Assembly: GCA_964016885.1 (NCBI GenBank)
Contig: OZ024740.1
Span: 17,732,001 to 17,796,000 of the forward strand
From: Eledone cirrhosa
Lineage: Eukaryota
Length of the DNA: 64,000 nt
Reading direction: 5' to 3'
Made by a program: the position numbers and the translations under genes. Position 1 is the stretch's first letter. Each line of letters opens with the position of its first letter. Positions 8,249 through 37,362 of this stretch are shown piece after piece. The notes beneath the pieces are model-generated. The model saw nothing but the letters and a program-made list of their open reading frames with translations. It was not told the DNA's origin and searched no databases.

Positions 8249-9026
8249 TTCTCTCTAAAAATGAAAGGCAAGCTGTATGATGCCTGCATACGAACATCAA
8301 TGTTACATGGCAGTGAGACCTGGGCATTGTGTGCAGAGGATATACGCAGACTGGAGAGGAACGAAGCTTGCATGCTCCGTTGGATGTGTAATAGTAATAT
8401 ACGTGAACAGCAAAGCACAAACGAACTAAGGGAAAAATTAGAAATAAGAGGGATCAGATGTTGTTTACTTGAGAGAAGACTGCGTTGGTATGGTCACGTG
8501 ATGCGCATGAAAGACGACAGCTGTATAAAAAAGTGTAGGGCAATAAAGATAGATGGTAGCCACGGAGTAGGCAGACCCAGAAAAACCTGGGACGACTTGA
8601 TAAATTCCGACCTCACACACTTACACCTCTCCAAGACAATGTCACTGGACCAAGATCTTTGGCGCTACACAGTAATACAGAAGACCCGCCTTACCTAAGT
8701 ACAAAGTGAAACCTACTACAGTCAGTAGGCACCTCTAACAAATACACCCCCGTCCCACTACCTCCACCCCATCCACACCACCCCTTTCAATGTAAAGTTA
8801 TGTTGGTACCACAACATCCAGTCCGAAACAAATGAGGTCGTGTAGGTGTCACGACAAAAAAACACACAGTCCATGCTGTAATATGGCCGTGTAGGTAACA
8901 CGCTAAAAACCTCCCAGTCCACACTGTAAACGTGGTTGGTGTTAGGAAGGGCATCCAGCCGTAGAAAACCCGCCAGACAGTCCTATGCGAGGAAGACAAC
9001 CACTCTTGCCTCAAGTGGGAAAACTC
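8249..9026 (+). mobile_element. RTE LINE family A, 3' fragment (copy 1), 3' UTR cut off at a Penelope-like insertion
   Basis: [16 protein letters not shown]...RRLRWYGHV...GRPRKTW, stop at 8698, followed by the family 3' UTR. Confidence 0.93.
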
Positions 9027-9640
9027 AGCACACTGTATATCTCTCTCTGGTGTGTTACCTTTTCAACATATTGTATATATATATATACATATAATATGTT
9101 GAGAAGGTAACACACCAGAGAGAGATATATAGTGCGTTATCAATAATACAGGGAAACAAACCACCAGTGTATGGAATCTATAACCTATGAAAGGCAGACT
9201 ATAGACACGATAATTAAAAATATAAATTAAAGCGTAAATAAATACCTCTATAACTATATAACACACGTACAAAATCTCTTAGTGTTGTCTGAAATGTATA
9301 GCCTTACACACGCTGATGAACCGAGACTAGACCATTTCTTTCAACAAATTTTTTGGTGAAACATATCTTTGGATTTGTACGTGTGTTATATAGTTATAGA
9401 GGTATTTATTTACGCTTTAATTTATATTTTTAATTATCGTGTCTATAGTCTGCCTTTCATAGGTTATAGATTCCATACACTGGTGGTTTTTTCCCTGTAT
9501 TATTGATAACGCACTATATATCTCTCTCTGGTGTGTTACCTTCTCAACATATTATATTTTAAGGGGCTCAGGATCTCTTCCCCTTTGAGCACATTATTTA
9601 CAGGGAATAACGACGGCCTATGCCTCCGTTAATTTATCGT
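9027..9640 (+). mobile_element. Penelope-like pLTR with long inverted repeat (9089-9273 / 9374-9557)
   Basis: Near-perfect ~185-bp inverted arms around a spacer holding a hammerhead core; inverted pLTRs with hammerheads are characteristic of Penelope-like elements. Confidence 0.7.
9306..9386 (+). ncRNA. Type I hammerhead ribozyme
   Basis: ACACACG-CTGATGA-accgaga..ttttggt-GAA-ACATATC tttg GATTTGT-A-CGTGTGT; helices I, II, III pair by hand; GUA site at 9377-9379. Confidence 0.8.
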
Positions 9641-10474
9641 GATATATATATATACATATATACATATACATCATAAGGTTTAGCGTCCGTGTTCCACGCT
9701 TGCATATATGTATACATATATATATATATATACATATATATATATACATATATATATACATATACATATATACATATATATACATATATACATATATATA
9801 TACATATATACATTATATATATACATTATATATATACATATATACATATATACATATATACATTATATATATACATATACATATATACATATATATACAT
9901 ATATATACATATATACATTATATATATACATTATATATATACATATATACATATATACATTATATATATACATTATATATATACATATATACATATATAC
10001 ATATATACATATATATACATATATACATATATATATATATACATATATATATACATATATACATATATATATATATACATATATACATATATATATATAT
10101 ACATATATATATATATACATATATACATATATATATATATACATATATATATACATATATACATATATATATATATATATACATATATACATATATATAT
10201 ATATACATATATATATACATATATATATATATATATATATATATATATATATATATATATAGATATATACATATATATATATATATAGATATATACATAT
10301 ATATATATATATAGATATATACATATATATACATATATATATATATATATATATATATATATATATATATATATAGATATATACATATATATATATATAT
10401 AGATATATACATATATATATATATAGATATATACATATAATATATATATATATATATATATATATATATATATA

Positions 10475-10950
10475 TCATCATCATCATCATCATCAACGTT
10501 TAACGTCCGTGTTCCACGCTTGCATGGGTTTGGACGGGGGTAGTCCCACTTGAGGCAAGAGTGATTGTCTTGCTCGCATAGGACTGTCTGGCAGGTTTTC
10601 TACAGTTGGATGCCCTTCCTAACACCAACCACATTTACAGTGTGGGTCTGGGAGGTTTTTACCGTGTTGCCTACACGGCCACATTACAGCGTGGACTGTG
10701 TGTTTTTTTGTCGTGACACCTACACGATCTCATTTGTTTCGGCCTGGATGGCGCGGCACCAACATAACTTTACATAGAACGGGGTGGTGTGGATGGAGTG
10801 GGGGTGGTGGTGGTGGGACGGGGTGTATTTTGTTAGAGATGCCTACTGGCTGGAGTAGGTTTTACTATATATTTAGGTAAGGCGGGTCTTCTCTGTTACT
10901 GAGTACCGCCAAAGGTCTCGGTCCAGTGACATTGTCTTGGAGAGGTGTAA
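10475..10950 (-). mobile_element. RTE family A 3' end (copy 2)
   Basis: Last codons [24 protein letters not shown], full 3' UTR, (GAT)n tail; TA array on both sides. Confidence 0.95.
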
Positions 10951-12299
10951 ATAGATATATACATATATATATATATATAGATATATACATATATATATAT
11001 ATATATATATATATATATATATATATAGATATATACATATATATATAGATATATACATATATAGATATATACATATATATATATATATAGATATATACAT
11101 ATATATATATATATATACATATATATATATATAGATATATACATATATATATATATATATATATATATATATATATATATACATATATATATATATATAT
11201 ATATATACATATATATATATACATATATATATATATATACATATATATATATACATATATATATATATATACATATATATATATATATATACATATATAT
11301 ATATATACATATATATATATATATATATATATATATATATACATATATATATATATATATATATATATATATATATACATATATATATATATATATACAT
11401 ATATATATATATATATACATATATATATACATATATATATACATATATACATATATATATATATATATATATATACATATATATATATATATACATATAT
11501 ATATACATATATATATATATATACATATATATACATATATATATATATACATATATATATATATATACATATATATATATATATATACATATATATATAT
11601 ATATACATATATATATATATATATACATATATATACATATATACATATATATACATATATACATATATATATATATATATATACATATATACATATATAT
11701 ACATATATACATATATACATATATCATATATATATATATACATATATATATATATATACATATATACATATATATATATATATATATACATATATATATA
11801 TATATACATATATATATATATATATACATATATATATATATATACATATATATATATATATATATATACATATATATATATATATACATATATATATATA
11901 TATATATACATATATATATATATATACATATATACATATTATATATATATATATATATATACATATATATATATATATACATATATATATATATACATAT
12001 ATACATATATATATATATACATATATATATATACATATATATATATACATATATACATATATACATATATATATACATATATATATATAATATATATATA
12101 TATATATATATATATAATATACATATATATATATATATATATATACACATATATACATATATATATACATACATATATACATATATATATATACATATAT
12201 ACATATATATATACATATATATATATATATATATATATATATACATTATATATATATATATATACATTATATATATATATATATATATATATACATATA

Positions 12300-35342: not shown

Positions 35343-36272
35343 ATAGTGAAGAGTTTAGCGTAAAAGTCGGCGTCCATCAGGGCTCTGTTCTCAGTCCCCT
35401 ACTATTTATTATTGCCCTTCAGGCTATAACAGAGGAGTTCAAGACCGGCTGCCCATGGGAACTCCTATACGCAGATGACCTAACACTCATAGCTGAATCA
35501 ATGGCCGAGCTAGAGAAGAAATTCCAAACATGGAAGCACGGCCTAGAATCAAAAGGCCTTAAAATTAACCTGGCTAGGACTAAAGTTCTAGTTTGTAAGA
35601 AAGAAAATAGGGCGGCGGTCCCTTCCGGGAAGTGGCCATGCTCAGTGTGTAGGAAAGGCGTAGGTAGAAACTCCATTTTGTGTCCCTAATGCAAAGTATG
35701 GGTGCATAAAAGATGTAGTGGGATCACAGGTAAGCTAACTAAGAACATAGATTTTACATGTGGCCGGTGCTCTGGTGCAATAAGTAGCAGCAAGTGCCCA
35801 CAAAATACTAGCTCTTTCAACTGCGCAGAGGGTTCTATAGAAATAGTGGACAGCTTTCGTTACCTGGGTGACAAAATCAGCAGTGGGGGAGGGTACTCTG
35901 AAAGTACAGTAGTTAGAAAACCCGCCACACAGTCCACGCTGTAATGTGGCCGTGTAGGCAACACGGTAAAAACCTCCCAGCCCCACACTGTAAATGTGGT
36001 TGGTGTTAGGAAGGGCATCCAGCTGTAGAAAACCCGCCACACAGTCCACGCTGTAATGTGGCCGTGTAGGCAACACGGTAAAAACCCCCCAGCCCCACAC
36101 TGTAAACGTGGATGGTGTTAGGAAGGGCATCCAGCTGTAGAAAACCCGCCAGACAGTCCTATGCGAGCAAGACAATCACTCTTGCCTCAAGTGGGACTAC
36201 CCCCGTCCAAACCCATGCAAGCGTGGAACACGGACGTTAAACGTTGATGATGATGATGATGATGATGATGAT
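35343..36272 (+). mobile_element. RTE family A copy 8, internally deleted, with 112-bp 3' UTR repeats
   Basis: GVHQG..YADD..PHD-like region, then jumps at ~35915 into the 3' UTR. Confidence 0.93.
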
Positions 36273-36446
36273 GAACAGTCCCATTGGATATTGTATTAAA
36301 TTATCAACTAAATAAATTAGAACTGACCTACAGGAAATGTATCTATATAACTACATATCTCTCTATATATAACTATATATATCTATATACATATCATTAC
36401 ATATATCTACATATATATCCATATACATATATATATCTATATATAT

Positions 36447-36789
36447 GGAGGCACATGGCTTAGTGGTAAGAGTATTGGCCTTGCAATCAATAGGTTGTGA
36501 GTTCAATTCTCAGACCGGGTGATGTGTTGTTTCCTTGAGCAAGACACTTTATTTCACATTGCTCCAGTTTACTCAGCTGTAGAAATGAGATGATAGGGAC
36601 TGGGGCCCCTATCATTCCACTGCAAAGTGGACGTGTAGGCGCCATGGCAAAAAAGCACCCAGCACTCACTGTAAATGAGGTTGGTGTTAGGAAGGGCATC
36701 CAGCTGTAGAAAGCAAGCCAGAATCAGTTCCCGTCCCACCCTTGCAAGCAGGGAAAAGCGGACGTAAAATGAAATGATGAAATGATGAT
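36447..36789 (+). mobile_element. Full-length tRNA-head SINE (CORE-like centre, RTE-type tail)
   Basis: A box TGGCTTAGTGG, B box GTTCAATTC, CCTTGAGCAAGACACTT core, tail GGTTGGTGTTAGGAAGGGCATCCAGCTGTAGAAA shared with the LINE 3' UTR. Confidence 0.92.
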
Positions 36790-37077
36790 ATATATATCTA
36801 CATATATATATATACATACATATATACATATATATATCTGCATATATATATATACATACATATATATATACATGTATATCTATATATATATATATATCTA
36901 CATCATCATCATCATCATTTTACGTCTGCTTTTCCCTGCTTGCAATATATATCTACATATATATCTATATATAACTACATATACATATATATATATATGT
37001 ATCTACATAAATATATATATAGTAATAATTATGAAGACCAAACTAAGGATTATATATATATATATATTCATTCATTC

Positions 37078-37362
37078 ATTCATTTAATTTTACGTCCACT
37101 TTTTCCCTGCTTGCAAGGGTGGGACGGGAACTGATTCTGGCTTGATATCTACAGCTGGATGCCCTTCCTAACACCAACCTCATTTACAGTGAGTGCTGGG
37201 TGCTTTTTTGCCGTGGCATCTCCACGACCACTTTGCAGTGGAATGATAGGGACCCCAGTCCCTATCATCTCATTTCTACAGCTGAGTAAACTGGAGCAAT
37301 GTGAAATAAAGTGTCTTGCTCAAGGAAACAACACATCACCTGGTCGTTTCCTTGAGCAAGAC
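37078..37362 (-). mobile_element. 5'-truncated copy of the same SINE with a short inverted 5' piece
   Basis: Matches 29060-29330; GTTTCCTTGAGCAAGAC inverted at 37346-37362. Confidence 0.88.

What the first reader, a model, noticed from the sequence alone, without database searches (positions are those of the whole stretch)
8249..37362. 29-kb retroelement nest in TA microsatellite: apparent (TA)n-targeting by an RTE LINE/SINE pair and by unrelated elements
Seen: eight family-A RTE pieces, three partner SINEs, a CR1 fragment, Penelope-like pieces and two RTE-like mini-elements lie here, and most junctions (both (GAT)n tail and 5' truncation) abut TA repeats directly. The same array variant continues on both sides of an insert (TAGATA around copy 2, TACATACA around the CR1 fragment), so insertion was into pre-existing arrays. 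Established: microsatellite-specific non-LTR elements are known in the R1, Tx1 and R4 clades (Waldo, Mino, Kibi/Koshi, Dong). Inference: either a TA-preferring RTE endonuclease or a fragile, cruciform-prone TA field that captures retro-cDNAs of any clade and keeps growing.
Basis: partly seen in the sequence, partly recalled or inferred. Interest (0 to 1): 0.7.

Follow-up and report, generated by a model that had tools for sequence, protein, structure and literature searches.

The report
Several retrotransposon clans target TA repeats
A 29-kb pile of jumping-gene pieces sits in TA repeats, and several unrelated families in this genome land in such repeats far more often than chance (a very young, likely CR1-type family almost always does), likely because each family cuts and primes at TA runs itself, while a much commoner short element shows no such preference.

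Summary
The nest is real, but family-A RTE is its least specific member. In 120 evenly spaced 10-kb stretches (background 7.3%), 3' ends abut TA-type arrays for 6 of 17 young RTE-A copies, 4 of 13 SINEs, 10 of 13 RTE-like mini-elements, and only 8 of 119 copies of an ATT-tailed SINE. So TA fields do not capture every family. The "CR1 fragment" belongs to a very young LINE family (99.7% identical copies, intact 1045-codon ORF2) with 45 of 48 3' ends in TA arrays and matching array variants on both sides. The Penelope pieces are one Hydra-like element carrying its own 2-kb TA-rich tract; RTE copy 3 sits inside it, and other copies show the empty site. Best reading: several families with their own TA preference of different strength, plus element-borne and expanding arrays, build such nests. 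This scan noted the RTE/TA preference before on other DNA; Hydra (TA)n insertion is published. A near-strict (TA)n-specific CR1-clade LINE was not found in ten literature searches; Repbase was not searchable. Interest 0.5.

The parts
8249..9026 (+). RTE-A copy 1, 5'-truncated, lacks the GAT tail
9662..9702 (-). 40-bp piece of an RTE-A 3' end inside TA array
9703..10475 (.). TA array with TACATA, then TAGATA variants
10476..10950 (-). RTE-A copy 2, TAGATA variant on both sides
10951..12301 (.). TA array
12302..18785 (-). one 5'-truncated Hydra-like Penelope element: GIY-YIG end of the ORF at 18343-18780, about 2 kb TA/CA-rich tract, terminal piece 12302-12830; split by RTE-A copy 3 and a SINE piece
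13617..13661 (+). SINE 3' piece inside the Penelope-borne tract
14330..17538 (-). RTE-A copy 3: 902-codon open frame (APE remnant, RT, PHD finger), 112-bp duplication in the 3' UTR, inserted in the Penelope-borne (TA)n tract
18981..21524 (+). RTE-A copy 4 (one stop at about 20010)
22305..22832 (.). unclassified repeat; one of its end motifs abuts TA in 8 of 8 sampled copies
22832..23390 (+). RTE-like mini-element (family length 608 bp), slightly 5'-truncated, C2H2-like remnant near the 3' end
23421..25647 (.). TA array
25648..25956 (-). second mini-element, 5'-truncated, arrays on both sides
26861..27458 (-). 3' fragment of the young CR1-type LINE (family C), TACATACA variant on both sides
27459..29060 (.). 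TA array
29061..29404 (-). SINE 1 with RTE-type 3' half and GAT/GAAAT tail
30012..30724 (-). RTE-A copy 5
30993..31239 (+). RTE-A copy 6
31240..32849 (.). TA array
32950..35138 (+). RTE-A copy 7 (5' junction not in TA)
35160..35293 (.). piece resembling a further family whose ends often abut TA (32 of 43 and 10 of 18 sampled ends); match read by eye
35343..36274 (+). RTE-A copy 8, internally deleted, 112-bp duplication, 3' flank not TA
36447..36789 (+). SINE 2
36902..36945 (-). SINE 3' piece, tail-to-tail with SINE 2
37069..37345 (-). SINE 3, 5'-truncated

Best explanation
The nest lies where several unrelated retroelement families, each enriched at TA repeats to its own degree, have inserted one after another, likely because each family's own endonuclease nicks alternating TA/TATG DNA and its RNA end likely primes on one or two AT pairs at the nick. 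Shown: family C (CR1-type) and the 608-bp mini-element are near-strictly confined to TA-type arrays; RTE-A and its SINE are enriched about three- to six-fold; an ATT-tailed SINE is not enriched; arrays match on both sides of inserts; a Penelope element carries a TA tract that receives RTE inserts. Inferred: target-primed reverse transcription at a family-specific nick; short AT pairing; slippage growth of the split arrays, which together with element-borne tracts supplies more target and makes nests grow.
For: Unbiased 1.2-Mb sample, background 7959 of 108,960 positions: mini 10 of 13 (P 1e-9), family C 3 of 4 by script (the miss is a tail-parsing failure; the printed flank is TA), RTE-A at >=90% identity 6 of 17 (P 9e-4), SINE 4 of 13 (P 0.012), ATT SINE 8 of 119. 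Best-hit loci, one 24-nt rule, background 6.3%: family C 24 of 29 3' and 15 of 17 5'; mini 26 of 29 and 26 of 29; RTE-A 11 of 29 and 10 of 17; SINE 6 of 28 and 6 of 28. All family-C 3' ends held: 45 of 48, background 7.0%; 5' truncation points 24 of 29, and 3 more have TA just beyond an inverted copy of the 3' end. Flank-variant similarity 5' vs 3': family C 0.76 vs 0.34 shuffled, mini 0.72 vs 0.59, both 0 of 5000. Families read the target differently: mini 3' flanks are G-type 25, C-type 2, family C 9 vs 16. Family-C endonuclease keeps the ETH, GDFN and SDH motifs aligned with L1. 43 of 48 family-C flanks and 29 of 29 mini flanks begin with AT. Empty site: the Penelope tract runs uninterrupted across RTE-3's position in L273, L281, L286; 3 of 3 extended Penelope loci hold other RTE-A inserts in or next to the tract.
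Against: No biochemical test; flanks cannot separate endonuclease preference from RNA pairing or DNA structure. RTE-A counts per 10-kb stretch do not track array content (rho 0.006), and older RTE relatives are at background (1 of 9). The nest holds about seven times more RTE-A tails than the densities predict. Only one negative-control family was counted formally. Among metagenomic relatives with a visible 3' end none ends in pure (TA)n, one (L326) ends in (CATA)n and one (L321) in a 16-bp repeat; loose ends of relatives in other organisms' contigs were AT-rich but mixed. The endonuclease hairpin region of family C looks like that of its relatives. The mini-element's autonomous partner was not found.
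Confidence: 0.72

Rival explanations
1. Long (TA)n arrays form cruciforms or break, and broken ends capture cDNAs of whatever element is active, without family-specific cutting.
For: At least four unrelated groups converge on one repeat; family-C flanking arrays are long (median 321 nt); the nest is denser than predicted.
Against: ATT-tailed SINE at background, 8 of 119; rates differ from about 0.2 to 0.9 between families under one rule; strand bias in the mini-element but not family C; (TATG)n arrays, which are not self-complementary, are used too.
Confidence: 0.1
2. Source copies lie in TA arrays, their transcripts read through into (UA)n, and RNA-DNA pairing rather than the endonuclease steers the particle to TA arrays, so any family that once lands in TA keeps doing so.
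For: Nearly all 3' flanks start with AT; 3 of 29 family-C 5' junctions carry an inverted 3'-end piece, as if the opposite TA strand primed on the same RNA end; pairing aids priming in R1Bm, I and R2Ol (PMC6007223, section 18); it would explain convergence across clades.
Against: 3' flanks match the local 5' variant, so they are not copied from a source RNA; no excess of pure TA at family-C 3' junctions (median 4 vs 7 nt, P 0.53). Tethering without copying is not excluded.
Confidence: 0.12
3. The arrays were seeded by the elements' own tails after insertion at ordinary sites.
For: RTE tails generate microsatellites in Lepidoptera (PMC2887409, passages); the Penelope element and the family-C 5' UTR do carry TA tracts; many RTE-A and SINE 3' arrays are short (median 10 and 0 nt).
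Against: Random 5' truncation points also abut arrays, variants match across the insert, and an empty site exists.
Confidence: 0.03
4. Insertion is random and copies outside arrays are purged, or the pattern is an assembly artefact.
For: Passive accumulation near CA repeats is proposed for Drosophila Waldo-A/B (PMC3812793, passage); array lengths may be mis-assembled.
Against: Family C is 99.7% identical between copies, too young for purging of about 90% of inserts; the ATT SINE persists everywhere; copies have distinct truncations.
Confidence: 0.03

Closest known systems
Microsatellite-specific non-LTR elements: Waldo (ACAY), Mino (AC), Kibi (TC), Koshi (TTC), Dong (TAA) (PMC3812793, passage); target-specific families fall in RLE clades, Tx1 and R1 (PMC4640811, passages)
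   Same: Near-exclusive insertion in one simple repeat, both junctions in the array; family C and the mini-element behave this way.
   Different: Target is (TA)n/(TATG)n, absent from that list; family C groups with CR1-type RTs and the mini-element looks RTE-derived, neither among the three groups named.
Hydra-clade (and Naiad, Neptune) Penelope-like elements (PMC8557442, passages)
   Same: C-terminal GIY-YIG, CxCX5C linker, DKT and RWK-like motifs; almost all Hydra families are reported to insert in (TA)n.
   Different: This family carries about 2 kb of TA/CA-rich tract that serves as landing site for other elements; hammerhead not confirmed; no tree made.
RTE-clade LINEs and SINEs with the Tn-TA signature (PMC6007223 sections 11 part 1 and 18; PMC13295347 section 11)
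   Same: Soft site preference; first target bases agree with the tail repeat (GAT tail, flanks often AT or GT-AT).
   Different: Here about a third of young copies sit in TA arrays, duplications are mostly too short to call, and the upstream T run could not be tested with enough sites.
Bipartite non-autonomous RTEs (Bov-A, RTESINE, WALLSI3; PMC5786205, passages) and RTE-2_OV of Octopus vulgaris (PMC9115989, section 6)
   Same: Short element that looks like 5' and 3' parts of a LINE; RTE-2_OV has a C2H2 finger and a microsatellite right after its ORF.
TA-targeting DNA transposons: MuTAnT (PMC4486113, abstract), Micron (PMC3812793, passage)
   Same: Same target repeat.
   Different: Cut-and-paste transposons of plants, not retroelements.

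Membership tests
CR1 clade (family C) | ORF2 with APE endonuclease followed by RT | tested here: met
   Pfam Exo_endo_phos, Exo_endo_phos_2 and RVT_1 above cut-off; 1045-codon frame in 20 of 20 fetched copies, chosen for that frame
CR1 clade (family C) | RT groups with CR1 elements | tested here: inconclusive
   FastTree of 148 RTs: inside a group (support 0.988) that holds L336, which ends in a doubled octamer tail; the octamer tail is a feature of amniote CR1 (PMC4316615, passage), its letters recalled. No named references or L2/Crack/Daphne anchors were available
CR1 clade (family C) | Separate upstream ORF1; short 3' UTR ending in a short tandem repeat, no poly(A) | tested here: met
   396-codon ORF1 overlapping ORF2, two CCCH-like fingers, weak Myb-like hit below cut-off; about 90-nt 3' UTR ending in a doubled unit of about 10 bp
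Sequence-specific R1, Tx1 or RLE elements (family C) | Near-exclusive insertion in one repeat | tested here: met
   45 of 48 3' ends against 7.0% background
Sequence-specific R1, Tx1 or RLE elements (family C) | RLE endonuclease, or ORF2 ending in a CCHC knuckle as in R1/Tx1 (feature recalled) | tested here: not met
   Endonuclease is APE-type; no CCHC motif at the ORF2 end by eye
Hydra-clade Penelope-like element | C-terminal GIY-YIG with CxCX5C linker; DKT and RWK motifs | tested here: met
   GIY-YIG E 8e-4, below Pfam cut-off; linker in the window frame; DKT and RWR in the 729-codon frame of L407; features
Hydra-clade Penelope-like element | Canonical hammerhead ribozyme | tested here: inconclusive
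   Core-like words at 12300-12372(-) by eye, fold z 0.02; no hammerhead among the 150 of 383 Rfam rows shown
Hydra-clade Penelope-like element | Placement in the Hydra clade by RT tree | not tested
   No reference sequences on hand
RTE clade (family A) | Single ORF with APE and RT; short 3' UTR with microsatellite tail | tested here: met
RTE clade (family A) | Tn-TA signature (T run about 10 nt before the duplication) | tested here: inconclusive
   Only 9 of 45 RTE-A/SINE loci gave a non-pure-TA duplication of 6 nt or more; T runs in some only
Bipartite non-autonomous RTE (mini-element) | 5' and 3' parts of an autonomous RTE present in the genome | tested here: inconclusive
   C2H2-like remnant at the 3' end; all 150 scored matches had frames of 126 codons or less; partner not found

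The most novel reading that the evidence does not exclude
A currently active CR1-clade LINE has evolved strict (TA)n specificity, a fourth origin of target specificity in non-LTR elements outside RLE, R1 and Tx1, alongside an RTE-derived element specific for one strand of (TA)n/(TATG)n; with TA-carrying Penelope elements they form a self-feeding system in which elements deliver, split and reuse one microsatellite that makes up about 6% of this genome.
Probability: 0.5. Interest if true: 0.68.

Novelty: new variant of a known kind. Interest (0 to 1): 0.5.

Why it matters
Reviews place target-specific non-LTR elements in three groups (PMC4640811). A young, intact CR1-type family with more than 90% of ends in (TA)n, next to softer (RTE-A) and indifferent (ATT SINE) families in one genome, gives a graded natural series for asking whether endonuclease, RNA end or DNA structure sets the target, which PMC3812793 calls not well understood. 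It also explains how multi-kilobase TA fields and retroelement nests grow in this genome and why short-read assemblies break there. The nest itself is an expected by-product, not a special locus.

Tried and rejected
First SINE search had three flank bases in the query and was biased toward TA at the 5' side; its 30 loci were left out of the counts and the search was repeated without flank; one of 29 new loci (L209) was dropped for an unparsed tail. DNA search for the CR1 piece found nothing, not even the window; the protein search worked. De novo end clustering mixes true ends with internal alignment breaks and had no matched background, so it is used only as a lead. Target-duplication search mostly failed because sites are short or pure TA. 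Search for the mini-element's autonomous partner failed. Rfam gave only TA-repeat miRNA look-alikes in the rows shown; two folds gave z near 0. Sequencing runs: near-identical family-C sequence in runs of several coded organisms, no RNA holder listed; the one raw-read run laid gave 0 reads, and contigs break at repeats, so flanks in other species could not be scored. Cluster look-up gave no informative names. The protein atlas gave no result. Local duplication as the origin of the nest was rejected (different truncations, 91-99% identity). tRNA scan: none.
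Full report
Setting. The window is G000:C1:17732001-17796000 in a 3.0-Gb animal genome. An octopus-like cephalopod is a recalled resemblance that earlier scan notes share; I did not test it.

1. Observation. Self-comparison of the masked window recovered all listed pieces. TA-type arrays fill 41.7% of 8249-37362, 2.4% of the rest of the window, and 2 of 120 genome stretches reach that level. 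Of 17 audited pieces, 11 5' ends and 13 3' ends abut arrays. The RTE-A copies end at different 5' points and are 91-99% alike: independent insertions. Copy 3 keeps a 902-codon frame with APE remnant, RT and a PHD finger.

2. The genome-wide test. I took 120 evenly spaced 10-kb stretches from 20 large contigs (1.2 Mb). Arrays make up 5.8% of it. With one rule (80% of the 16 bases after the tail covered by TA/TATG-type words; background 7959 of 108,960 positions) the 3' ends scored: mini-element 10 of 13; CR1-type family C 3 of 4 (the miss is a tail-parsing failure with a TA flank); RTE-A at 90% identity or more 6 of 17, older relatives 1 of 9; SINE 4 of 13; an ATT-tailed SINE 5 of 61 young and 3 of 58 older. 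Best-hit loci from genome searches (window copies left out) agree under a 24-nt rule with 6.3% background: RTE-A 11 of 29 3' and 10 of 17 5'; SINE 6 of 28 and 6 of 28; mini 26 of 29 and 26 of 29; family C 24 of 29 and 15 of 17. Rough copy numbers from the sample are 42,000 young RTE-A, 32,000 mini and 152,000 young ATT SINE ends.

3. Family C. The protein search returned 19,097 candidates, 150 scored, all 99-100% identical. Twenty copies picked for a 1045-codon frame all gave it; 19 of them are 99.7% identical on average. The element has a 396-codon ORF1 with two CCCH-like fingers and a weak Myb-like hit below cut-off, an overlapping APE-RT ORF2 with catalytic motifs aligned to L1, and a short 3' UTR ending in a doubled unit of about 10 bp. 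Of all 48 distinct 3' ends held (window copy included), 45 pass a lenient rule with 7.0% background; two misses are TA/TCTA and CATA arrays, one (L261) is a 3'-truncated copy in other DNA. Of 29 5' truncation points, 24 abut arrays, 3 have an inverted piece of the element's 3' end between array and element, one has a short TA run nearby and one abuts another repeat. An RT tree of 148 sequences puts family C in a group (support 0.988) with L336, which ends in the doubled octamer typical of amniote CR1; no named references were available, so the clade call is likely, not proven. Metagenomic relatives share the CCCH fingers; of those with a visible 3' end, L326 ends in (CATA)n, L321 has a similar tail followed by a 16-bp repeat, the rest show no TA array. 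Strict TA use is thus likely recent or local.

4. Mini-element. Full length is 608 bp. All 29 best hits start their 3' flank with AT; arrays are G-type on the sense strand in 25, C-type in 2, tied in 2, whereas family C has 9, 16 and 4. The families read the target differently, which argues for a protein or RNA determinant over passive breakage. It ends in a C2H2-like remnant, like a bipartite RTE (PMC5786205, passages); its partner was not found.

5. Arrays came first, and some are carried. Interruption patterns on the two sides of an insert are more alike than shuffled pairs: family C 0.76 vs 0.34 (17 loci), mini 0.72 vs 0.59 (29), SINE 0.21 vs 0.11 (28), each 0 of 5000, RTE-A 0.28 vs 0.12 (17), 2 of 5000. 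The Penelope pieces are one element: 28 of 29 other copies continue into the same TA/TATG-rich tract behind the ORF (read by eye; L294 is cut short), and L405 holds both end pieces in the same order. At RTE copy 3's position the tract is uninterrupted in L273, L281 and L286: an empty site. All 3 extended Penelope loci hold other RTE-A inserts in or beside the tract. Its motifs (CxCX5C linker, DKT, RWR, C-terminal GIY-YIG) fit the Hydra clade, reported to insert in (TA)n (PMC8557442, passages). The family-C 5' UTR also carries a short TA run.

6. Mechanism. Shown: graded, family-specific enrichment, pre-existing arrays, element-borne tracts. Inferred: each endonuclease nicks alternating TA/TATG DNA with its own stringency; the RNA end pairs on one or two AT bases, as proposed for RTE tails (PMC6007223, section 18); split arrays then expand by slippage. 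The 3 inverted 5' pieces fit a second priming from the opposite strand of a self-complementary target. Against or unresolved: RTE-A counts do not track array content per stretch (rho 0.006) and the nest has 7 tails against 1.0 expected, which post-hoc choice among about 100,000 windows can cover; one formal control family only; no endonuclease signature seen; flanks in other organisms were not scorable.

7. Literature. Ten searches found no CR1-clade or RTE-clade family described as (TA)n-specific. Seen: PMC4640811, PMC3812793, PMC8557442, PMC2887409, PMC5786205, PMC4120745, PMC4316615, PMC3747384, PMC13282606 as passages; PMC6007223 abstract, section 11 part 1 and section 18; PMC13295347 abstract and section 11; PMC9115989 passages and section 6; PMC4486113 abstract; PMC13343379 term search without a relevant hit. 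PMC2887409 states RTE sites do not appear sequence-specific. No supplements were read; Repbase, Dfam and subscription papers (such as Kojima and Fujiwara 2004) were not searchable and may already note such families. Earlier scan notes report the RTE/TA preference and a (TATG)n RTE branch elsewhere in this genome; look-ups for the CR1 family by sequence and by words gave nothing.

8. Verdict. The new element is the near-strict TA specificity of a young CR1-type LINE and of an RTE-like mini-element. New variant of a known kind; interest 0.5.

Noticed in passing
L246, L307, L161 (5' junctions of family C): An inverted piece of the element's own 3' end lies between the TA array and the 5' truncation point in 3 of 29 junctions.
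   Followed up: partly
L161:4384-4679, L166:3599-3738, window 36447-36945: Tail-to-tail pairs of RTE or SINE copies separated by only a few bases of TA/TATG.
   Followed up: no
1.2-Mb sample, e.g. L034:2200, L116:9063, L111:3009, L138:7025: Several unclassified short repeat families have one end abutting TA in 10 of 10, 11 of 12, 21 of 25 and 32 of 43 sampled copies.
   Followed up: no
L306, L310, L311, L314, L318 (5' UTR of family C): The 5' UTR appears to be built of repeated units of about 260 bp that include a short (TA)n run, so the element carries its own target.
   Followed up: no
L301:3472-4659 (-): Family-C ORF1 has a long polyglutamine run, two CCCH-like fingers shared with metagenomic relatives, and a weak Myb/SANT-like N-terminus where relatives have PHD-like fingers.
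   Followed up: partly
L301:461-2400: Near-identical family-C sequence is held in runs of several differently coded organisms (word shares 0.95, 0.90, 0.83): close relatives or horizontal transfer, not resolved.
   Followed up: no
window 14424-14660 and 35914-36159; L045:1-603: A 112-bp unit of the RTE-A 3' UTR is tandemly duplicated in several copies.
   Followed up: no
L031:3156-5986: A 48-bp satellite that resembles part of the RTE-A 3' UTR.
   Followed up: no
window 45262-52571, 54670-59956, 60695-62275, 62387-63833: Large satellites with 18-, 47-, 31- and 3-bp units fill most of the right third of the window and hold no RTE-A piece.
   Followed up: no
window 44032-44206: A further RTE-A 3' piece outside the finding, next to a 35-bp minisatellite.
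   Followed up: no
window 14833-17538 (-), residues 642-685: RTE-A carries a PHD finger downstream of the RT domain.
   Followed up: no
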